Shown here: piece after piece, positions 3,484 through 37,559 of the stretch
How the letters are laid out: each line of letters starts with the position of its first letter
Numbering within the stretch: position 1 is the stretch's first letter
Assembly (NCBI GenBank): GCA_964543815.1
Contig: CAZIZG010000001.1
Coordinates: 116,265 to 180,264, forward strand
DNA from: an uncultured Bdellovibrionales bacterium
GTDB taxonomy: Bacteria; Patescibacteriota; Minisyncoccia; Moranbacterales; UBA1568
DNA: 64,000 nt
Direction: 5' to 3'
Program-made: the position numbers and the translations under genes
Notes under the pieces: generated by a model
Databases searched by the model: none
The model's input: only the letters and a program-made list of their open reading frames with translations
What the model was told of the DNA's origin: nothing

Positions 3484-3856
3484 TTCCAAAACAGATCTAT
3501 AAGCCGGATTCTGTTCCGCCGAGGAGGCGGAGATTACCATTTATCTTGTCTATCCGTTACCGGATAACTCTTTGCAGTTCTCCACATCTTTCTTGAGCTC
3601 CAAGAAAAACTTGGCACGACCTTGCACCGAGGTAAGGATTTAGCCGTTTCACTCTCCGCATTACTGTGGAGACTCAACCCTTGCGGGTTGCCGAGCGTCT
3701 TTCGTACTCGGCGTCTCTGCTCGCACCTCGCGCCTCACGGCGTATGGGGGTTACCCATTACCCTTGCCACTCTTGCGAGTAGCTCGGTGTCCGGACTTTC
3801 CTCACTCCAGCCCTTTGCAGAGCCAGCCGCGCGATAATCCAATCTGTTCTGGAAAA
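3484..3856 (-). ncRNA. rnpB: RNase P RNA, bacterial type
   Basis: minus strand carries GAGGAAAGTCCGGAC (P4 5-prime half; plus-strand rc at 3789-3803) and ACAGAATCCGGCTTATAGATCTGTT (3-prime P4 half/P1, rc of about 3490-3515); P1 pairing CCAGAACAGAT/ATCTGTTTTGG; ends approximate (+/-5 nt). Confidence 0.85.
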
Positions 3857-3901: not shown

Positions 3902-4071
3902 TGACGCACTCTCAGCTCTCATCCTCCCTTATTCTACTCGAAAACCCCACTTTCTGACAGTCTCACTCTTTACAAAAACTACAATCTGTGGGAAGATATA
4001 TTGTCATCTCAGGAATTCATCCGAAATGTTTTCGATGAACACTCCTGTAGACGGCTAGAAGAAGGAGCGAA

Positions 4072-4377
4072 ATGACAGGAGTCATTGAAATGCTGCGTAT
4101 TCGCGTCGAAACCACACCAGAGTTCATCTGCCTTGCGCGGCATGAACATCACGCCGAATTCCTTGGAGCCTTTGTTGGGTTCGAACTCGACGCGGTTCCA
4201 GATCCCGAAAATGAGACGCTCTATCGCGTCTCGGTTGGAGAGGTAGAAAAAGCCCTCCGCCAAAAAACAGGCGGCACCATGGCTGTGGTCTACTGGACGG
4301 GCCACTGGCATCGTACCCAGCACCTGCTGGACGATCCCGTCTACTTCCCCAAGAGTTGCTGCGTCATCGTCACGTAG
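4072..4377 (+). CDS. hypothetical protein (101 aa) in a locally GC-rich islet
   Basis: AAGGAG 7 nt upstream of ATG; followed by terminator 4386-4418; overlapping minus ORF 4009..4323 rejected. Confidence 0.45.
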   Translation: MTGVIEMLRIRVETTPEFICLARHEHHAEFLGAFVGFELDAVPDPENETLYRVSVGEVEKALRQKTGGTMAVVYWTGHWHRTQHLLDDPVYFPKSCCVIVT

Positions 4378-5378: not shown

Positions 5379-6541
5379 ATACACTGCTTTAAGAAATTAT
5401 TATAGGCCTCATCGCAATACTTGGTAGTATAGCGCGCCAGAACCGTCTGTCGAGCCCGTTCCCCCATTCGCTGTCGATCCTCAGGAGAAACAATCAGGTG
5501 CTCCAATTTTTCCTGCCATTCCGAAGGCGTGGCTGCCACAAAGCCATCCACCCCATCGACGATCGCCTCACGAAAAGTCTGAGTCGCCGCAGCTACCGTC
5601 GGTACCGCTATCAATCCCGCTTCAAACCATTTGAGCTCTGATTTTGATTCACAAAAGGGATTTCCGATTTCAAGTGGCGCCAAATTAATATCCATCTGCC
5701 TGATATGTTCGAAAAGTTCCTCGCGGGTAAGAAATGGCACTCGTTCTATTTGTGATATATAAGGTGTCAGTAACTCATCGATGTCGAGCGGGCCAACTAA
5801 TACCAAGCGGAGATGAGAATACTTACCAAGAAGCGTTGCGAGTACCGGCGCAATGGTAGCAAAGTCTTTGTTGTGACTCGGGGTACCCGAAAGGTACGTC
5901 ATCCGAATCAATCCATCCGAATGAACTAGTTTGCCGATCACTCTCTCAGCAAGAGCGACATCCGCCTGAGACAGTTTGTTCCGTACCACAAAAACATGCT
6001 TTCCTCGTTCGCGGAGCTTGTCAGCTAAAAAAGTGGTGGTTGTGGTCGCCACCTTCACTGCCTCATCCGCAACAATCTCACCTCCCAGGCCATGCTCATA
6101 GAGCTTTTTTTCCCACGCATTCATCTTGGTATAGTAGTCCATGTGCTTAAGAAAGACTGGGTCGTATACGAGATCGTCCGTTTCAAAAATAATGGTCTTT
6201 CCCTGTGCTTTGAGGCCAGTAACAAACTGCGCAATCCGATCCGTATAGAGTACCCGATGAAAGACGAAAACGGAAAACTTTTCCGTATACGACAAGAGAA
6301 AAGGATTATCCTGAACCGTAATCGCTGTCCGGATATTTTGAAACCGCAACTCCTCGGCGACATTGGCGGTACGATACCGAGCACTGTCCCCTACGCCGTT
6401 TGAAATAAACAGTACGTCTCCTGGTTTCACCGAACGAAAAAGCCCCACGAAGGCCTTCGCGATACGCTCTCCGCCTCGCCAGAGACCATCCCGTTTGAGT
6501 ACCTGCCACGCCTTGCCAAATTTTATAAGGAGTAACTTCAT
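5375..6541 (-). CDS. glycosyltransferase family 4 (GT-B, GT1-type)
   Basis: 389-407 aa; C-terminal GT1 motifs; start trimmed to avoid overlap with upstream gene. Confidence 0.7.
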   Translation of the reverse strand: MKLLLIKFGKAWQVLKRDGLWRGGERIAKAFVGLFRSVKPGDVLFISNGVGDSARYRTANVAEELRFQNIRTAITVQDNPFLLSYTEKFSVFVFHRVLYTDRIAQFVTGLKAQGKTIIFETDDLVYDPVFLKHMDYYTKMNAWEKKLYEHGLGGEIVADEAVKVATTTTTFLADKLRERGKHVFVVRNKLSQADVALAERVIGKLVHSDGLIRMTYLSGTPSHNKDFATIAPVLATLLGKYSHLRLVLVGPLDIDELLTPYISQIERVPFLTREELFEHIRQMDINLAPLEIGNPFCESKSELKWFEAGLIAVPTVAAATQTFREAIVDGVDGFVAATPSEWQEKLEHLIVSPEDRQRMGERARQTVLARYTTKYCDEAYNNFLKQCI

Positions 6542-13240: not shown

Positions 13241-13663
13241 ATGACTCCTCTTCTCCAAAAAATTACGACCTTATTCAGGACTACCCATACTAGCGGCTGG
13301 CTCTCCGTGATACACGCCCTTGCTCTCGAAACGCTCGTTGTTGGCTATATGATTTTCATCAGTCTCTTCACCATCGAAACTCTCCTCCCCACATTTATTA
13401 CCGTTCGTTTCAGTCTGACGAAGTTTTTCTTTCTACTCATTGCGGCGACGATGCTCACCTCGCTTCTCAGTCATCTTCTCTCCGTCAGTTTCCGCATCTC
13501 TTGGAATCTAAAGAATCCCCTCCTCTGGCTTGGGTTACTCTGGGGTATCGGCATTCTCATCATTTCACTCATCAAATTTCCTGTGGTACTCATTCTGATT
13601 CTTACCACTCTCTTCCTCGCTGTTGGCTATCTTTTTTGGCGCATATTTCTTGAGGAAAATTAG
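13241..13663 (+). CDS. small integral membrane protein (140 aa)
   Basis: 4 hydrophobic helices; followed by the bidirectional terminator. Confidence 0.5.
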   Translation: MTPLLQKITTLFRTTHTSGWLSVIHALALETLVVGYMIFISLFTIETLLPTFITVRFSLTKFFFLLIAATMLTSLLSHLLSVSFRISWNLKNPLLWLGLLWGIGILIISLIKFPVVLILILTTLFLAVGYLFWRIFLEEN

Positions 13664-13680
13664 TCCGCAGAAAAAAAAGA

Positions 13681-13705
13681 GGAAGCCGAATTTCGACTTC
13701 CTTTT
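13681..13705. terminator. bidirectional Rho-independent terminator
   Basis: AAAAAAAAGA-GGAAGCCGaatttCGACTTCC-TTTTG; A-run upstream and T-run downstream serve the convergent genes on both strands. Confidence 0.6.
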
Positions 13706-13723
13706 GTGCGTGCCGCGCTCTGT

Positions 13724-14212
13724 TCAGTGCGGCTGACTGCGGCGATCGCGCGAGGCGAACAGATTCATCAGGTCGGACAGACTGCCCAGGCCGAGCTCCT
13801 GCTGCTCGATCTGCTTGAGTTGATCGAGGTCGAGCACCGACCAATGCGGACCGATGCCGAAGCCCAGCTTGCCACTGAGGCCGGGGAACTCCTGGAGCAC
13901 CGCCTCGTGAAACGTGGCTTCGAGCCACTTGGACCGGCGCGCCAGCGAAAGCGCCTTGGTCTTCGCGTCATCCTTGACACGAACCGGCGCGAGCGCGATG
14001 TCGAGCACGGCCACCTGGGCGTCGCGCGCTGCCTTCTGCTTGAGGTAGAACAGCGCACGGAGCGGATGTGACAGGGTGCCGAGCACGAAACGCCGGAGCT
14101 CCGAAGGCACGCCACCTGCCGGAACGACGGCCTCCATCTGCAACGCAGTGACCACCTCCAACTGACCCGTCAGGTCAGCGAAGAAAGGGATCTTGCCGAT
14201 TCTCTCGTCCAT
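13724..14212 (-). CDS. hypothetical protein (163 aa) in high-GC islet
   Basis: GGAG 8 nt upstream of the MDERIGKIP start; visibly GC-rich with several overlapping stop-free frames; no motif recognized. Confidence 0.45.
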   Translation of the reverse strand: MDERIGKIPFFADLTGQLEVVTALQMEAVVPAGGVPSELRRFVLGTLSHPLRALFYLKQKAARDAQVAVLDIALAPVRVKDDAKTKALSLARRSKWLEATFHEAVLQEFPGLSGKLGFGIGPHWSVLDLDQLKQIEQQELGLGSLSDLMNLFASRDRRSQPH

Positions 14213-14313
14213 GAATTCTCCATCTGTCAAACTTCGCCTACAGAAACAAGCCCTTGGCCTATTCCCAGGCGAAAGAATACTGTACCTCTTTTTGAGAATT
14301 TCGTCAAGTATTA

Positions 14314-15771
14314 TCAACTTAACGATTCGAGATCGAGCACCTCATCGATACGAATCTGGGCGACGAAATCAGGCACGTGGCTGACCAAAATCATGGCCCC
14401 CTGGTATTGATCGAGCGCCTCAGCAATCACCGGTAAGTGCCGGAAATTGATATGGTTGGTCGGCTCATCAAGAATGAGCAGGTCAGGCTTTTGCGCATAA
14501 AGACAAGCAAACATGAGTAGTCCCTTCTGTCCTTCGGAAAGGCTCTCTACTTTGTTCTGCATCAATTCTGCCGGCACCAGAAATTTCGTTGCTACCTTAT
14601 AGGCCAGTTCAATATTTTTTTCTGGTAATACTTCAAGTAATGTCTCAGCTACTGTTTTTTCAAAATCAAGCGTCGAAAAGTCCTGACGATAATAACCAAC
14701 CGTCACACCCGGAGTAATTTCAGCCCGCTCCGTATTGCCCGTCGCTAACTCCTCCAAAAACGTACTCTTACCAATACCATTCGGACCCGAAACGACGAGG
14801 TGAGTATTTTTCTTGAGGATCATGTCCACTCGCTTTATATTAGGACCAAACTCCCCGAGAACAGATACGGTCTTGATATTGACAATCGGTCCAACGATAC
14901 CATGGGTAGGGATTTCAAACGCCGGCAAAGTTTTATCCTCCTGACGCACATCAACTTTATTTTCCTCAAGCTCCTCGGCTAAAGTACGCATTCTTTTTGC
15001 CACGGCTCGAAGCTTTCCTCCTTTATTCGCAAAGACGTTGGCTTGGTCCTTTTTCTCCTGAATAGTCCGTTCCAAACGCACGTTCTCGCTCTGGGCTTTG
15101 GCAATACGTCGAGCAATCTCCTCCACCACATCATAATAATTCCCGGTGTACTGCTCAATCTGATGAGTAAAGATATCAAGATAGAACACTCCTTCCGTAA
15201 AAGCGTTCAAAAACTCAGCATCGTGCGAAATAACGATAACCGTTTTTTTATAATCGATGAGGAACCGTGTGAGATGCTCAATACCGGCATAATCGAGGTT
15301 ATTGGTCGGCTCATCAAGCAGCAGAATATCTGGATCCTGAATAAGGGCCGAAGCAAGAAGGAGACGCGCCTGCTGACCACCGGAAAACTGTCGGATTTTC
15401 TTATCAAGTGGCGGTACCGGTAAGTTCACCACTTCCAAAACATCTTTGATAAGCGCCGGTAAGTTCCATTTTTTTTCCTGAAAAAACTGTTCAAAAAATT
15501 CTTCAACGGTAAAATCGAGCTGCTCTCGCGGAATCGTCTGGCGCCCAATCGCCACCACAGCGTCTCGGTCGATGGAAATACGGCCGCCCTGTGGCTGCTC
15601 TTCCCGCGTGATGAGTTTAAAAAGCGAGCTCTTGCCAGCGCCGTTTTGGCCCATGAGCGTAATCTTGGAGCCAGCACGTAAACTAAAACTCACCTCATCG
15701 AGGATGGGTTTCTTATGCCCGTATTCAAACAATACCTTATCAAATCGGAGTACGACGTTATCTTTGGCCAT
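14314..15771 (-). CDS. ABC-F family ATPase (tandem ABC domains, no TM domain)
   Basis: two Walker A (GQNGAGKSS, GPNGIGKST), two signature motifs (FSGGQQARL, LSEGQKGLL), two Walker B (ILLLDEPTNNLD, LLILDEPTNHIN). Confidence 0.85.
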   Translation of the reverse strand: MAKDNVVLRFDKVLFEYGHKKPILDEVSFSLRAGSKITLMGQNGAGKSSLFKLITREEQPQGGRISIDRDAVVAIGRQTIPREQLDFTVEEFFEQFFQEKKWNLPALIKDVLEVVNLPVPPLDKKIRQFSGGQQARLLLASALIQDPDILLLDEPTNNLDYAGIEHLTRFLIDYKKTVIVISHDAEFLNAFTEGVFYLDIFTHQIEQYTGNYYDVVEEIARRIAKAQSENVRLERTIQEKKDQANVFANKGGKLRAVAKRMRTLAEELEENKVDVRQEDKTLPAFEIPTHGIVGPIVNIKTVSVLGEFGPNIKRVDMILKKNTHLVVSGPNGIGKSTFLEELATGNTERAEITPGVTVGYYRQDFSTLDFEKTVAETLLEVLPEKNIELAYKVATKFLVPAELMQNKVESLSEGQKGLLMFACLYAQKPDLLILDEPTNHINFRHLPVIAEALDQYQGAMILVSHVPDFVAQIRIDEVLDLESLS

Positions 15772-15894
15772 AAATACTTTTCAGTAAAGGAGATTCTTGA
15801 AAAACACACCCTCGCTCTTGGATTACGCAGGGTAAATAAAAACGCCGTTTTCGGCAAAAGCATTCTGACACAGAATTTTGAAATACGCAAGGCA

Positions 15895-15927
15895 TGAAAA
15901 AAGCGACGAGACATTCCCTCGTCGCTT
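15895..15927 (-). terminator. Rho-independent terminator for gene 15942..16268
   Basis: perfect 10-bp stem AAGCGACGAG/CTCGTCGCTT with 7-nt loop; U-tract on the minus strand. Confidence 0.7.
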
Positions 15928-15941
15928 ATCTGGTATTGGCC

Positions 15942-16268
15942 TCAGGCGATGGCGGCGGCACCGTTGCGCGGCAAGGTCGTCGCCAGGTAGATGCCCGCCA
16001 GTACCCCGAGCGACTGCCTGCCGCGTCCAATCATGCACTCGTCCATGACGGTGTGGAGTTCCTCGACAAACCGCCCGAGGACGATGAGGGCCACGTTTCC
16101 GCGCTTCGCATCGGCCCGATGGAGACGATAGCGTCCTTTGAGGAGGTCCACCGTGGCCAGGAGATCCTGCGGCACGATGAGTGCGAGCAAATGCTTGGCC
16201 TCACTCACACCACGAAGCGCGACGGCACATTCTTGGGCCTCTTGAAAAAGACTGGTCACATCATTCAT
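15942..16268 (-). CDS. hypothetical protein (108 aa) in high-GC islet; possibly a distant paralog of 13724..14212
   Basis: GGAGAGAG upstream of start; terminator downstream; weak by-eye similarity to 13724..14212 (LLKGRYRLHRADAKRGNVALIVLGRFV vs YLKQKAARDAQVAVLDIALAPV). Confidence 0.45.
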   Translation of the reverse strand: MNDVTSLFQEAQECAVALRGVSEAKHLLALIVPQDLLATVDLLKGRYRLHRADAKRGNVALIVLGRFVEELHTVMDECMIGRGRQSLGVLAGIYLATTLPRNGAAAIA

Positions 16269-16398
16269 GTCTTACTCTCTCCGGTGAAATTGCCGCTAAA
16301 CGGCGAAAAAAGAACCAAATCTGTCATAACATTTTAGTACAGATTTGTATTTTTGTCAACCCCCATTATTTTGCCTTCTCACCTCTACTCTGAGACAG

Positions 16399-16438
16399 AA
16401 TTCCTCACTTTCTCACGACCGTGAGAAAGTGAGGAATT
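16399..16438. repeat. perfect 18-bp inverted repeat with 4-nt loop
   Basis: AATTCCTCACTTTCTCAC-gacc-GTGAGAAAGTGAGGAATT, 6 nt beyond the GT4 stop codon; no U-tract. Confidence 0.8.
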
Positions 16439-16443
16439 GAAAT

Positions 16444-17559
16444 TTAACGAAAAATTACATCAAGAGTCTGTTTGGCACAAGTATCCCAGGAAAAATTCTT
16501 TAATCGTTCATTACCTTTCTGAACAAGCTCCATCCGGAGCATCTCATCTCCCCATAAGCGCTGCATTTTTTCCGCCATATCAGCCGCATCCTCAGCTTGG
16601 CAAAAAAGTGCTCCGTCCCCTGCTACTTCGATCAAACTAGAGTTCCCGGCTGTGAGGACCGGGATACCTGCGGCAAAAGCTTCAAGGAGAGGGAGACCAA
16701 ATCCCTCGTAGAGCGACGGGAAGACAAAAAACCGAGCGCCCTGATACAAAATACGCAGATCTTCAAACGACACCCTCCCTGGTAATACGATATCATCTCG
16801 AACCGAACTCCTTTTCCAAGCCTCTAGAATTCCTTGTGACAACCAGGCTGGTTCACCGGCGAGGACCAATTTCACCTCTGGAACAGAGCGTTTCAGTATC
16901 TGGAAAGCCTCAATCAAGCGAATAAGATTTTTTCTCGGCTGTAACGCTCCAACATAGAGGATATAATTTCGAGACTTGAGAAGATACTTTTGAAGCGTAT
17001 CAGCCACGATGACTTCCGACACCCTCTCACCAAAAAATTCTCCGTCAAAACCATGATGAATAACTGTTATACGCTCTTCAGGTACTACAGGAAAAAATTC
17101 AAGCAAGTCCCGCTTGGTTGATTCTGATACCGCAATCAACTTATGAGCTCGCTGCACCGCTGTCTCAAGCATAAAATTAAGTTTCAATCGGTGTGAGAGC
17201 GGAAAGGTTTCCGGATAACGACGGAAAGCTAAGTCATGAATCGTAGTTGTCACATCAACAGAACTCGGCATGACAAGTGGAGCCGCCTGAATAGGCAGAA
17301 AAAGCTTATCGGGTGTCTCACGAAAAAGCTCCCAAGCAAAACGTGTCTGCATCCAGGCTCGTGGAAACGACACCGATTGCTCGTGATAGTTTGGTAATTT
17401 CGGTGGCGCTAAAACAGGATTAAAAATTCCCTTATGATAGAGAGTGAACTCTGTCTTTGGTGAAAGGTCTCCAAAACGCTTAAGTATTTCTCGTAGATAG
17501 ACGCGCGTCCCATCGATGCGTGCATGATCGAGATCCGAAGCTTGGATGGCAACTCGCAT
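16444..17559 (-). CDS. glycosyltransferase family 4 (GT-B)
   Basis: start MRVAIQASDLDHARIDGTRVYLREIL; C-terminal GT1 motifs (FVFPSLYEGFGLPLLEA). Confidence 0.75.
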   Translation of the reverse strand: MRVAIQASDLDHARIDGTRVYLREILKRFGDLSPKTEFTLYHKGIFNPVLAPPKLPNYHEQSVSFPRAWMQTRFAWELFRETPDKLFLPIQAAPLVMPSSVDVTTTIHDLAFRRYPETFPLSHRLKLNFMLETAVQRAHKLIAVSESTKRDLLEFFPVVPEERITVIHHGFDGEFFGERVSEVIVADTLQKYLLKSRNYILYVGALQPRKNLIRLIEAFQILKRSVPEVKLVLAGEPAWLSQGILEAWKRSSVRDDIVLPGRVSFEDLRILYQGARFFVFPSLYEGFGLPLLEAFAAGIPVLTAGNSSLIEVAGDGALFCQAEDAADMAEKMQRLWGDEMLRMELVQKGNERLKNFSWDTCAKQTLDVIFR

Positions 17560-20607: not shown

Positions 20608-20636
20608 TTGACAAAAATCTATTTTAGGTGTATAAT
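20608..20636 (+). promoter_or_regulatory. consensus sigma70 promoter TTGACA-17-TATAAT
   Basis: exact consensus hexamers with 17-nt spacer, about 85 nt upstream of ATG 20722. Confidence 0.6.
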
Positions 20637-20721: not shown

Positions 20722-21423
20722 ATGAACCTTAACATCAGCGTCACGTCAGCAAGAACCCAAAAAGAAGCTTCAGTCAAGTGGATTCAGCCCACAGGGCCGG
20801 AGCTCAAGCAGGGTTCAAAGCAACGTCATCGCGCCACCTGGTCAGTCACGCTCGACAAACTCGAGAGTGAGATCATACGTATTTGGGGCGCCCCCCTGTT
20901 CCATGGCGAAATCGAAAATCCCCACGCCGAGGAAATAGGCGTAGAGTTCAACGACGTTCTCTGCAAGAGTGTCTGCGGTATCGGTATGGGAGCCGCCTAT
21001 AGGGTCATAATGACTCAGCCAGACAATCCCATCCACAGCGACCTCTTTCAGTTCCGTCTCAATGCCAATCTGATGAACGGTCGCCGTTCAATCATGGTGA
21101 GCATCGACAAGCCCCACATCAATGAGCAGAACCTGGAATTCTTCCTGCGACTCCTCAAGATCTGCATGAAGGAATTCTATCGAAAGGGCAATAAACAACA
21201 CGTCGGGGCATATTTCAACAGTCGTAAGGGTATCGGACACGCAAAGCGCCGCTACCTGCTCTGGCTGGGAGCTCAGGGACAACTCGATGCCGGCACCAGG
21301 GCGCTCTGGAGCAATTACCACGCTTTAGAGATCAAATACAACCTGACGGCTGGGACGTACAAGGGAGCTAATAGCGCCTGGCAACGTCTAATCGCAGTCG
21401 AACAAGCTTTGCAGAAGATCTGA
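20722..21423 (+). CDS. hypothetical protein (233 aa), moderately GC-rich
   Basis: GGAG 7 nt upstream; own promoter and terminator; no recognized motif. Confidence 0.5.
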   Translation: MNLNISVTSARTQKEASVKWIQPTGPELKQGSKQRHRATWSVTLDKLESEIIRIWGAPLFHGEIENPHAEEIGVEFNDVLCKSVCGIGMGAAYRVIMTQPDNPIHSDLFQFRLNANLMNGRRSIMVSIDKPHINEQNLEFFLRLLKICMKEFYRKGNKQHVGAYFNSRKGIGHAKRRYLLWLGAQGQLDAGTRALWSNYHALEIKYNLTAGTYKGANSAWQRLIAVEQALQKI

Positions 21424-23434: not shown

Positions 23435-24004
23435 TCAGGCCGCCTTGGGTTCAGCCTCGATGAGGACGAAAGTGCCTTCACGTACCACGGCCAGATACTT
23501 CGGCGGGTCTTCACTCGGCGAAGTAAAGTTGACTGTGATGGGACCATCCTGGTTCCACCACGTGCTGTCGTTCCAGCTGAAGCGGTTCGACAGAACAACG
23601 ATGGCGTCCCGCACTGGCCGCGAAAGCTCCAAGATTTCCTCCGGGTTGGGAGCGGCCTTGTAGACGAGTTGGACCACGTTTTGCGTGTCCCTTCCGATGA
23701 GCTTGGCCATGTGCTTGTCCGTGATTTCCTGTTCCCACTGGCCGATGTCCACCAGTTTCCACTGGTGGCCTTCGGCATTGGCGATGCCGAGACGGAGCAG
23801 CTTGGGGCTGACACCGCTCTGCCTGATGAGGCATTCTCCGGTGTCCTGTCTCTTCCCACGGACAGTCTTGAATTTGCCGCGGTAACCGAGGTCAGGGATA
23901 CCGCTAGGCACCGAATTACCCTGAAAGAAGAACTTGACGATCACGATACCGTTTGACTCATCGAGCCCCAGCGGAGACTTATCGTTCGCGTAGCTTGTTG
24001 CCAT
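23435..24004 (-). CDS. hypothetical protein (189 aa) in high-GC islet
   Basis: AAGGAGG upstream of the MATSYAND start; region has at least 5 overlapping stop-free frames (GC-rich); no motif. Confidence 0.45.
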   Translation of the reverse strand: MATSYANDKSPLGLDESNGIVIVKFFFQGNSVPSGIPDLGYRGKFKTVRGKRQDTGECLIRQSGVSPKLLRLGIANAEGHQWKLVDIGQWEQEITDKHMAKLIGRDTQNVVQLVYKAAPNPEEILELSRPVRDAIVVLSNRFSWNDSTWWNQDGPITVNFTSPSEDPPKYLAVVREGTFVLIEAEPKAA

Positions 24005-37481: not shown

Positions 37482-37553
37482 TGGGGAGTAGCCAAGCGGT
37501 AAGGCAGGGGCCTTTGAAGCCTCCATGCGATGGTTCGATCCCATCCTCCCCAG
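37482..37553 (+). tRNA. tRNA-Gln (anticodon TTG); CCA not encoded
   Basis: TGGGGAG-TA-GCC-AAGCGGTAA-GGC-A-GGGGC-CTTTGAA-GCCTC-CATGC-GATGG-TTCGATC-CCATC-CTCCCCA-G; cloverleaf near-identical in plan to E. coli tRNA-Gln. Confidence 0.85.
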
Positions 37554-37559
37554 CAAATT

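What the first reader, a model, noticed from the sequence alone, without database searches (positions are those of the whole stretch)
13724..16268. Two short high-GC genes, possibly distant paralogs, flanking the ABC-F ATPase, each with SD and private terminator
ORFs 13724..14212 (163 aa) and 15942..16268 (108 aa) are visibly GC-richer than their neighbours, with CTG/GCC/CGC-rich codons and several overlapping stop-free frames. This is by eye; I did not compute exact GC. Both have GGAG-type ribosome-binding sites and clean intrinsic terminators (13681-13705 and 15895-15927). Both lie on the same strand as the normal-GC ABC-F gene, which they bracket. By eye the two proteins share a weak motif (L-[LF]-[YD]-L-L-K-x-[KR]...[RK]-x-D-A-[KQ]...V-A-[VL]-[LI]). 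The compositional contrast suggests horizontal acquisition from a high-GC donor. Function is unknown: candidate toxin/immunity or ABC-F-associated factors.
Basis: partly seen in the sequence, partly recalled or inferred. Interest (0 to 1): 0.55.

Follow-up and report, generated by a model that had tools for sequence, protein, structure and literature searches.

The report
Two unrelated GC-rich orphan gene cassettes
Two small, GC-rich genes flanking a conserved translation-factor gene in an uncultured Moranbacteria (candidate phyla radiation) genome are real. They are unrelated, fast-evolving orphan genes sitting in two insertion hot spots, their function is unknown, and they are neither paralogs nor partners of the neighbouring gene.

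Summary
ORFs 13724-14212 (162 aa, "A") and 15942-16268 (108 aa, "B") are the two strongest GC outliers of the window: GC 0.64 and 0.62 against 0.466, and GC3 0.82 and 0.73 against 0.48±0.07. Each has a Shine-Dalgarno site, a sigma-70-like promoter and a strong terminator.

- **Real genes.** Substitutions follow codon positions 3>1>2 and dN/dS is 0.23-0.46. There is no Rfam hit and no excess RNA folding.
- **Not a chimera.** The 3.3-kb region recurs at 99.95-100% identity in 10 public contigs fetched from several samples.
- **Not paralogs.** BLASTP gives E=16 and hhalign probability is ≤0.11%.
- **A** belongs to a nine-member orphan family. It is an insertion between ABC-F and a membrane-protein gene, a slot that is empty in most relatives. 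Four distant members lie in contigs with no ABC-F gene.
- **B** is a divergent allele of a mosaic, Moranbacteria-only family. That family occupies a conserved promoter/terminator platform upstream of ABC-F and alternates with a second ORF type.

No homology to any Pfam, NCBIfam, PADLOC, PHROG, PDB, phage or plasmid entry was found. Both proteins are predicted to be small soluble helical proteins. Their codon usage fits GC-richer genomes, including GC-richer Moranbacteria, better than the host. Import by recombination is therefore the best reading, but no donor was found. Function is only guessed (conflict or immunity-like binder). This is an ordinary kind of feature with one compositional oddity.

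The parts
13724..14212 (-). Gene A: 162-aa soluble helical orphan protein (pI 8.1, no transmembrane segment), GC 0.64, GC3 0.82
   Evidence: ORF. GC by codon position is 0.71/0.41/0.82. Substitutions between orthologs follow 3>1>2 and dN/dS is 0.26-0.46. Orthologs are P0002/P0005 (about 71%) and P0003 (62%) in the same slot. Only nine family members were recovered in total. The HMMER scan of 1.84 billion representatives gave six hits. The AF2 model has pLDDT 52.7 with a helical hairpin at residues 49-108. No Pfam, NCBIfam, PADLOC, PHROG or PDB match.
13680..13702 (-). Terminator of gene A. It sits between the convergent genes A and M140, so it is probably bidirectional.
   Evidence: 10-bp stem followed by T8. 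It is conserved in L002, and the stem start GGAAGTC is shared with L091.
14279..14307 (-). Promoter-like site of gene A (TTGACG-17-TACAGT), directly after the ABC-F stop codon
   Evidence: Consensus scan, 9 of 12 matches. The -35 TTGAC and the -10 TACAGT are conserved in L001 and L002.
14233..14273 (-). Conserved 5' leader hairpin of the A mRNA
   Evidence: RNAalifold on four cassettes (window, L001, L002, L091) predicts 18 pairs, 3 of them with changes on both sides.
14314..15771 (-). ABC-F family ATPase, 485 aa. This is conserved context, not part of either cassette.
   Evidence: Two ABC_tran domains plus ABC_tran_Xtn. NCBIfam ribosomal-protection-like ABC-F at 311 bits, below its cutoff of 380. 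It is 91-97% identical in the closest relatives and dN/dS is about 0.01.
15843..15891 (-). ABC-F promoter (-35 CTTGCG at 15891-15886, extended -10 TGTGTCAGAAT) and a short leader hairpin plus T-run (15856-15843)
   Evidence: The element recurs with the same layout in more than 20 related loci. The hairpin was picked up as terminator-like.
15901..15927 (-). Terminator of gene B. Its T-run abuts the ABC-F -35 box.
   Evidence: 11-bp stem followed by T6. The equivalent terminator is conserved behind B-type and C-type ORFs in L013, L015 and L016.
15942..16268 (-). Gene B: 108-aa soluble helical-bundle orphan protein (pI 7.9), GC 0.62, GC3 0.73
16309..16359 (-). Promoter of gene B (TTGACA-17-TAAAAT, 16359-16331), with a dyad (16309-16354) straddling the -10
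   Evidence: 11 of 12 consensus matches. Inverted repeat I3. The promoter and dyad are conserved in front of both B-type and C-type ORFs in L001, L013, L015 and L016.

Best explanation
A and B are two unrelated, autonomous single-gene transcription units (promoter, leader hairpin, Shine-Dalgarno site, ORF, terminator). Each encodes a small soluble alpha-helical orphan protein.

They occupy the two variable intergenic slots on either side of a highly conserved ABC-F gene. The host is an uncultured Moranbacteria (Patescibacteria, candidate phyla radiation) genome.

A is a cassette inserted between ABC-F and a convergent membrane-protein gene (M140). It is present in a few close lineages and absent from most.

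B is a divergent allele of a mosaic, fast-evolving gene. That gene sits on a conserved expression platform between a GT4 glycosyltransferase gene and the ABC-F promoter. In relatives the platform is empty or carries a second ORF type (C).

Inferred: the GC-rich, non-host codon usage reflects import of these alleles by recombination from GC-richer relatives, probably within the same phylum, followed by slow or incomplete amelioration.

Guess only: presence/absence polymorphism, allele mosaicism and high dN next to an almost invariant neighbour suggest that the proteins act as binders in some conflict or interaction system. That system could be orphan-immunity, antitoxin-like or anti-defence-like. 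They do not look like housekeeping partners of ABC-F.
For: - **Composition.** Searches show the GC and GC3 outliers.
- **Coding status.** Substitutions follow codon positions 3>1>2, and the sense ORF is intact in all family members while the antisense frame is broken in half of them. dN/dS is 0.23-0.46.
- **Autonomous units.** Promoters and terminators are. They are conserved in orthologous cassettes.
- **Not an artefact.** The 3.3-kb region is 99.95-100% identical in 10 public contigs from ENA and Logan samples, built with different assemblers judging by the contig names.
- **Unrelated to each other.**
- **A is an insertion.** GT4-ABC-F-M140 synteny is conserved in about 40 loci. The downstream spacer is 3-250 bp in the nearest relatives and about 640 bp where A is present.
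- **Hot spot.** The same slot holds a T4 gp30.3/NADAR-like gene in L033 and small membrane ORFs in other relatives.
- **A also occurs away from ABC-F.** Four members lie in contigs with no ABC-F gene, one beside a 324-aa HTH_38 protein.
- **B is fast and mosaic.** L015 and L016 have ABC-F 99.8% identical (dS 0.29), but their B proteins are only 65% identical (dN 0.25, dS 1.07). P0009 joins the N-terminal half of P0008 to a C-terminal half like P0012/P0014.
- **Codon usage.** A and B fit GC-rich Moranbacteria codon models better than the host model. Moranbacteria with ABC-F GC3 of 0.73-0.86 exist.
- **Not expression-linked codon bias.** Ribosomal-protein genes in the window have GC3 of 0.43-0.51.
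Against: - No donor or GC-rich native host of either family was found. The searches covered 5.8 billion and 1.84 billion protein sets, GTDB representative genomes, and IMG/VR, JGI, INPHARED and PLSDB records.
- All eight A-family genes with DNA in hand are GC-richer than their flanks.
- Synonymous codons among the three closest orthologs are already 78-88% as different as full randomisation would make them, yet GC3 stays near 0.8. That fits active maintenance at least as well as a fading import.
- B homologs in L015 and L016 are not GC3-enriched (0.62-0.63 against 0.65-0.66).
- The functional guess has no direct support. The fold matches are generic helical bundles, and the model of A has low confidence.
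- There are no expression data.
Confidence: 0.55

Rival explanations
1. These are native, hypervariable slot genes whose GC-richness is actively maintained. The cause would be GC-biased gene conversion at recombination hot spots, or selection on synonymous sites. It would not be a relic of transfer from a GC-rich donor.
For: - All 8 A-family genes are GC-richer than their hosts, across five kinds of genomic context.
- Synonymous sites are close to randomised while GC3 stays at 0.78-0.83.
- B alleles are mosaic, which indicates frequent recombination.
- No GC-rich source was found anywhere.
- Other GC-rich orphan units with their own promoter and terminator exist in the window.
Against: - The adjacent ends of ABC-F show no GC rise.
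- B homologs in L015 and L016 are not GC3-enriched.
- Three-taxon polarisation at third positions gives 31 S->W against 11 W->S changes in A. That implies an equilibrium GC3 near 0.59, which is decay rather than maintenance. Parsimony is biased at this divergence.
- mRNA folding z-scores are about 0, so there is no sign of selection for RNA structure.
Confidence: 0.25
2. A and/or B are functional partners or regulators of the adjacent ABC-F translation factor. They could be ribosome or ABC-F binding factors, or part of its regulation.
For: B-family and C-family ORFs are always found directly upstream of ABC-F. The B terminator abuts the ABC-F promoter. A lies directly downstream in four lineages.
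Against: - Each gene has its own promoter and terminator.
- ABC-F is almost invariant (dN/dS about 0.01), while A and B diverge to 41-71% and 28-50% identity.
- Many relatives with the same ABC-F have empty slots.
- Four A-family members lie in contigs without any ABC-F gene.
Confidence: 0.07
3. The GC-rich islets are not protein genes. They would be structured non-coding RNAs or spurious ORFs in GC-rich DNA.
For: High GC makes long ORFs likely by chance. The antisense-aligned frame is also open. There are no protein-family hits.
Against: - There are no Rfam hits, even at E<=1.
- Folding z-scores are +0.19 and -0.13.
- Substitutions follow 3>1>2 and dN/dS is below 0.5.
- Sense ORF length and start are conserved, while the antisense frame is broken in 4 of 8 members.
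- Protein-level homologs are detectable down to 24-30% identity.
- The Shine-Dalgarno sites and terminators fit the sense strand.
Confidence: 0.03
4. This is an assembly chimera, or contaminant fragments were spliced into the contig.
For: The composition switches sharply at both islets.
Against: - The whole 13400-16700 region, including all four junctions, is reproduced at 99.95-100% identity. It occurs in 10 public contigs from ENA and Logan samples, built with different assemblers judging by the contig names.
- Diverged orthologous cassettes occupy the same slots in other species.
Confidence: 0.01

Closest known systems
A moron is an autonomous promoter-gene-terminator unit of deviant base composition, inserted between two genes that are adjacent in related genomes.
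   Same: The anatomy matches. Each unit has its own sigma-70-like promoter, a single small ORF and its own terminator, and its composition deviates. Each is inserted between genes that are adjacent in relatives.
   Different: They lie in a bacterial chromosome among housekeeping genes. There are no phage genes nearby and no match in phage collections. They are GC-richer than the host, not AT-richer.
Species- or lineage-specific orphan genes (ORFans) of prokaryotes, as surveyed in PMC11293555
   Same: They are short and rare, show purifying but relaxed selection, and lack homologs outside a narrow lineage.
   Different: In that survey the GC and GC3 of orphans closely track their genome, and phage-like orphans are lower in GC (PMC11293555). 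Here the genes are 15-18 GC points above the genome.
Orphan immunity or antitoxin genes of polymorphic-toxin and toxin-antitoxin systems
Idiomorph-like allelic replacement at a conserved locus, where unrelated or hyper-divergent ORFs sit between conserved flanks
   Same: The B-type and C-type ORFs share a promoter, operator-like dyad, leader hairpin and terminator, but are barely alignable. hhalign probability is 11% and E is 0.0027.
   Different: No function or phenotype is linked to the alternative alleles. It is unresolved whether B and C are homologous.

Membership tests
Paralogous pair (A and B in one protein family) | Significant sequence or profile similarity | tested here: not met
   BLASTP E=16. 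hhalign probability is 0.05% for 3 against 5 sequences and 0.11% for 9 against 12 sequences.
Moron-like autonomous cassette | Own promoter and own terminator around a single ORF | tested here: met
   The promoter-like sites score 11 of 12 (B) and 9 of 12 (A). The terminators have 10-11 bp stems followed by T-runs. All are conserved in orthologous cassettes. Transcription itself was not measured.
Moron-like autonomous cassette | Inserted between genes that are adjacent in related genomes | tested here: met
   The ABC-F|M140 spacer is 3-250 bp in the nearest relatives and about 640 bp with A. The GT4|ABC-F spacer is 68-130 bp in compact relatives and about 670 bp with B.
Moron-like autonomous cassette | Base composition differs from the neighbours | tested here: met
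   GC z-scores are 6.0 and 5.2, and GC3 z-scores are 5.0 and 3.7. Codon usage is not host-like.
Moron-like autonomous cassette | Resides in a phage or prophage genome | tested here: not met
   The neighbours are housekeeping genes: ABC-F, GT4, IspH, UMP kinase and an aminoacyl-tRNA synthetase. There are no PHROG hits and no matches in IMG/VR or INPHARED.
Type II toxin-antitoxin or toxin-immunity pair | Two adjacent co-transcribed small genes | tested here: not met
   A and B are 1.7 kb apart with ABC-F between them. Each has its own promoter and terminator. Neither has a small partner ORF.
Type II toxin-antitoxin or toxin-immunity pair | Homology to a known toxin, antitoxin, immunity or defence family | tested here: not met
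   There are no Pfam, NCBIfam or PADLOC hits. Fold matches are generic.
ABC-F-associated factor | Conserved co-occurrence with ABC-F across genomes | tested here: not met
   Four A-family members lie in contigs without ABC-F. Many genomes with a near-identical ABC-F lack A and/or B.
Known structured RNA (Rfam) | Covariance-model match or excess folding stability | tested here: not met
   There is no hit at gathering threshold or at E<=1 within either ORF. Folding z-scores are +0.19 and -0.13.
Horizontally acquired islet from a high-GC donor | Atypical composition plus patchy distribution among close relatives | tested here: met
Horizontally acquired islet from a high-GC donor | Identifiable donor lineage in which the gene matches the local composition | tested here: not met
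   No homolog was found in any GC-rich context. All 8 A-family genes exceed their flanks in GC.

The most novel reading that the evidence does not exclude
These candidate-phyla-radiation genomes may carry a class of hypervariable slot genes. Such genes would be single-gene units on conserved expression platforms next to core genes. Their alleles would be swapped by recombination, and their GC-rich codon usage would be actively maintained by a gene-specific process. Candidate processes are GC-biased conversion at recombination hot spots, or selection on synonymous sites. Under this reading the GC-richness is not a fading trace of horizontal transfer. A, B/C and the other GC-rich orphan units in this window (23435-24004 and 20722-21423) would all be examples.
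Probability: 0.2. Interest if true: 0.6.

Novelty: new member of a known kind. Interest (0 to 1): 0.3.

Why it matters
As it stands the result is mostly a clean-up. It shows that the pair is not a paralogous or ABC-F-linked system, and that the islets are genuine accessory genes rather than assembly artefacts.

The modest wider value has three parts.
- It defines two new orphan protein families that appear confined to Moranbacteria-type genomes.
- It maps two insertion or allele-exchange hot spots around a conserved ABC-F gene, which could serve as markers of strain-level variation in Moranbacteria.
- It documents orphans that are much GC-richer than their genome. This runs against the usual pattern of matching or lower GC reported in PMC11293555.

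If the GC-richness proves to be maintained rather than imported, it would be a compact natural test case. It would bear on local GC-raising forces in small bacterial genomes.

Tried and rejected
- **Structured-RNA idea.** High-GC islets in a mid-GC genome often are RNAs. There was no Rfam hit and no excess folding, while the coding signatures are clear. Rejected.
- **Paralogy.** Rejected. A against C also failed, with probability 0.28%.
- **Protein-family libraries.** Pfam, NCBIfam, PADLOC and PHROGs were scanned, including every family member separately. Only scattered sub-threshold noise appeared.
- **PDB sequence profiles.** Nothing.
- **Donor hunt.** I searched GTDB representative genomes with A and IMG/VR with A and B. 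I also searched JGI metagenomes with A, and INPHARED phages and PLSDB plasmids with both. All were negative. An attempt with the nine-sequence alignment failed for lack of conserved blocks.
- **Expression-driven codon bias.** Rejected, because the L10 and L32 ribosomal-protein genes have GC3 of 0.51 and 0.43.
- **Shared operator.** The TCTGT-N-ACAGA dyad occurs at the B promoter and in the A leader. That is 2 hits against 0.57 expected, and 12% of shuffles do as well. It is not conserved in the A leaders of L001 and L002, so I treat it as chance.
- **Three-taxon polarisation of third-position changes**. It points to net GC loss, but parsimony is unreliable at this divergence. Inconclusive.
- **Integron-cassette reading.** I did not scan for attC sites. 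No integrase is nearby and both genes carry their own promoters, so I did not pursue it.
Full report
**1. What is there**

The window has 46.6% GC. In 200-nt windows the mean is 0.466 and the sd 0.047. The two highest peaks are at 13659-14262 (maximum 0.685) and 15863-16275 (maximum 0.665).

Each peak coincides with one minus-strand ORF. A is 13724-14212 (162 aa). B is 15942-16268 (108 aa).

| Gene | GC | GC by codon position (1/2/3) |
|---|---|---|
| A | 0.642 | 0.71 / 0.41 / 0.82 |
| B | 0.618 | 0.71 / 0.42 / 0.73 |
| ABC-F (between them) | 0.466 | 0.59 / 0.31 / 0.50 |

Against 44 ORFs of >=150 aa in the window (GC3 0.479±0.067), A and B lie 5.0 and 3.7 sd out in GC3. They lie 6.0 and 5.2 sd out in total GC.

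Both genes have GGAG-type Shine-Dalgarno sites (read). Both have strong minus-strand terminators directly after their stop codons: 13702->13680 (10-bp stem, T8) and 15927->15901 (11-bp stem, T6). Both have sigma-70-like promoters: TTGACA-17-TAAAAT at 16359->16331 for B, and TTGACG-17-TACAGT at 14307->14279 for A.

The remark about several stop-free frames is only partly right. Only the codon-aligned antisense frame is open, and the other frames hold 2-5 stops.

**2. Real genes, not RNA and not an artefact**

- No Rfam family matches either islet, at gathering threshold or at E<=1.
- The coding regions fold no better than dinucleotide shuffles, with z of +0.19 and -0.13.
- Between orthologs, differences follow codon positions 3>1>2. 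For A they are 0.41/0.21/0.14 at positions 3/1/2. For B they are 0.68/0.38/0.27.
- dN/dS is 0.26-0.46 for A and 0.23 for B.
- The sense ORF is intact in every family member, whereas the antisense frame is broken in 4 of 8 A-family genes.
- The entire 13400-16700 stretch, with all junctions, recurs at 99.95-100% identity. It occurs in 10 public contigs from ENA and Logan samples, built with different assemblers judging by the contig names. This excludes a chimera more firmly than one coverage plot could.

**3. Organism and synteny**

A scan of GTDB representative genomes with the ABC-F protein returned 78 loci. The nearest have 88-96% protein identity. They are MAGs titled either Candidatus Moraniibacteriota/Moranbacteria or, for one TPA series, "uncultured Bdellovibrionales".

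Because the two labels share near-identical loci, I take the lineage to be Moranbacteria (Patescibacteria). The second label is probably a naming problem, which I could not verify.

The order GT4 glycosyltransferase - ABC-F - convergent 140-aa membrane-protein gene (M140) is conserved in about 40 of these loci. Both spacers vary: 68-1244 bp upstream of ABC-F and 3-958 bp downstream.

**4. Gene A**

*Family size.* Only two close relatives exist among 5.8 billion clustered proteins, at 71% and 62% identity. A profile search of 1.84 billion representatives found six hits. Together with cluster members, this gives nine distinct proteins.

*Same-slot copies.*
- The two close relatives lie in the same ABC-F|M140 slot (L001, L002).
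- They have the same promoter, a conserved 5' leader hairpin (18 pairs, 3 with compensatory changes) and the same terminator.
- A fourth, 41%-identical member (L091) is also in this slot. Its 3' flank matches the M140 end of L014-L016, and it shares the leader hairpin and the terminator stem.
- In the other near relatives (L013-L025) the slot is 19-302 bp and has no trace of A. A is therefore an accessory insertion.

*The slot is a hot spot.* In L033 it holds a T4 gp30.3/NADAR-like gene (PF08010, E=5e-56). Elsewhere it holds small membrane ORFs.

*Copies elsewhere.* Four more distant A-family genes (24-30% identity) lie in contigs with no ABC-F gene. One is beside a 324-aa HTH_38 protein and nusA. 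The others are near a pyrophosphatase gene, membrane-protein genes, or TspO and arginase genes. This rules out an obligatory ABC-F link.

**5. Gene B**

*Family size and mosaicism.* A single-sequence search found only B itself. tblastn on the related loci found homologs at 37-50% identity in the same GT4|ABC-F slot in L015, L016 and L025, and a weaker one in L022. A profile search then gave 12 proteins. The alleles are mosaic. P0009 joins the N-terminal half of P0008 to a C-terminal half like that of P0012/P0014.

*Rate.* L015 and L016 have ABC-F proteins 99.8% identical (dS 0.29), yet their B proteins are 65% identical (dN 0.25, dS 1.07). This indicates allele exchange or very fast evolution.

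*A second ORF type in the same slot.*
- In L001, L013, L017 and L019 the slot holds a second ORF type, C.
- The same promoter, the same dyad straddling the -10 and a similar leader hairpin precede both ORF types. A similar terminator, whose T-run abuts the ABC-F -35 box, follows them.
- B and C align colinearly but weakly, with hhalign probability 11% and E=0.0027. They may be hyper-divergent alleles of one gene or unrelated replacements.
- Compact relatives such as L020 and L042 have no cassette at all.

**6. A and B are not paralogs**

BLASTP gives E=16. Profile-profile probabilities are 0.05% and 0.11%. The motif seen by eye falls, on the B side, in the least conserved part of the family alignment.

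**7. The compositional anomaly**

*Codon usage.* It is not host-like. Mean log2-likelihood per codon is shown below.

| Gene | Host model | GC-rich Moranbacteria model |
|---|---|---|
| A | -1.81 | -1.44 |
| B | -1.73 | -1.53 |
| ABC-F | -1.54 (its best fit) | -1.81 |

A fits the actinobacterial and acidobacterial models about equally well (-1.37 and -1.42).

*Possible donors.* GC-rich relatives exist. ABC-F GC3 ranges from 0.50 to 0.86 among the loci, so a donor within the phylum is plausible. The anomaly is not expression-linked, because the L10 and L32 ribosomal-protein genes have GC3 of 0.51 and 0.43.

*Three facts complicate a simple recent-transfer reading.*
- All eight A-family genes are GC-richer than their flanks, by 0.06 to 0.23. 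No GC-rich native context was found in any database.
- Among the three close orthologs, synonymous codons at conserved residues differ at 78-88% of the level expected under full randomisation. This is similar to the flanking ABC-F, yet GC3 is still 0.78-0.83.
- B homologs in L015 and L016 are not GC3-enriched relative to their ABC-F. Only the window's allele is anomalous.

A three-taxon polarisation gives 31 S->W against 11 W->S changes at third positions in A. That implies an equilibrium GC3 near 0.59 and hence slow decay, but the method is biased at this divergence.

I therefore favour import of alleles from GC-richer relatives by recombination in conserved flanks, with incomplete amelioration. 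Active local maintenance remains a serious rival.

For comparison, a large survey found that prokaryotic orphan genes match their genome's GC and GC3, and that phage-like orphans are lower (PMC11293555). These genes are atypical in that respect.

**8. How it most likely works**

*Shown:* two independent promoter-to-terminator units, each with one small ORF under purifying but relaxed selection, in two variable slots.

*Inferred:* the units are monocistronic, their expression is independent of ABC-F, and the alleles were acquired or exchanged by recombination.

*Guessed:* the products are binder-type helical proteins in a conflict or interaction system. The grounds are hypervariability, mosaicism and patchy presence next to an invariant core gene. 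The ABC-F|M140 slot also collects a phage-type NADAR/gp30.3 gene in a relative.

No toxin partner, defence gene or mobile-element gene is adjacent in the window.

**9. Verdict**

It is wrong on paralogy, on the ABC-F association and on a toxin/immunity pair.

This is a known kind of feature: lineage-specific orphan cassettes with moron-like anatomy in integration or exchange hot spots. It involves two new families and one unexplained property, persistent GC-richness.

Interest is low to moderate.

Noticed in passing
window 15843-15891 (-); also more than 20 related loci, e.g. L016 3928-4002 and L020 739-813: The ABC-F gene has a conserved promoter and leader across Moranbacteria. The layout is CTTGCA, 17-18 nt, TGTGTCA[C/G]AAT, about 8 nt, a short hairpin (GCCG-N4-CGGC, with variant stems such as GCTC...GAGC), then T5-6. 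The ATG follows 5-326 nt later. It could be a very early attenuator or a 5'-end stabiliser of a translation-factor gene.
   Followed up: partly
window 16309-16354; L001 1116-1160, L013 3476-3520, L015 3282-3326, L016 3434-3478: A dyad (AAATCTGTNC ... GNACAGATTT) straddles the -10 box of the B/C-slot promoter. It is conserved whichever ORF type follows, so it looks like a repressor operator.
   Followed up: partly
window 23435-24004 (-), 20722-21423 (+) and 4009-4323 (-): These are further GC-rich ORFs (GC3 0.73, 0.65 and 0.62) with no Pfam or PHROG match. The first has its own promoter (24128->24100) and a 15-bp-stem terminator (23403->23369). The second has a perfect TTGACA-17-TATAAT promoter at 20608-20636. 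GC-rich orphan units may be a recurrent feature of this genome.
   Followed up: partly
L033 about 5455-6414 (ABC-F|M140 slot): In this relative the slot that holds gene A carries a 153-aa T4 gp30.3/NADAR-like gene instead (PF08010, E=5e-56). Other relatives hold small membrane ORFs there. The slot is a general landing site for accessory genes.
   Followed up: partly
L033 and L047, GT4|ABC-F slot: The upstream slot holds a gene of about 205-210 aa, on opposite strands in the two loci. It contains the stretch 'WDGKWR.(L/F)MFDIP...LGFYQIQKSVW.YP', which looks Cas2/PaaX-like by eye. It was not tested against any library.
   Followed up: no
L092 535-2065: A distant A-family gene (P0021) sits next to a divergently oriented 324-aa HTH_38/HTH_23 protein. 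That protein resembles an IS30-type transposase in size and N-terminus, but no catalytic domain was detected by Pfam.
   Followed up: partly
window 16399-16438: A perfect 19-nt inverted repeat with a 2-nt loop lies directly after the GT4 stop codon and has no T-run. It is conserved with changes in L001 and is probably the GT4 terminator or processing hairpin.
   Followed up: no
window 3484-3850 (-) and 37482-37554 (+): There is a bacterial class A RNase P RNA (108.5 bits, just above the gathering score of 100). tRNA-Gln(TTG) is the only tRNA in 64 kb.
   Followed up: no
record titles of L013-L018 and others: Many of the closest MAGs are titled 'uncultured Bdellovibrionales', although their loci are 88-96% identical in ABC-F to Moraniibacteriota MAGs and share the same synteny. 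This is probably a taxonomy-label problem in that TPA series.
   Followed up: no
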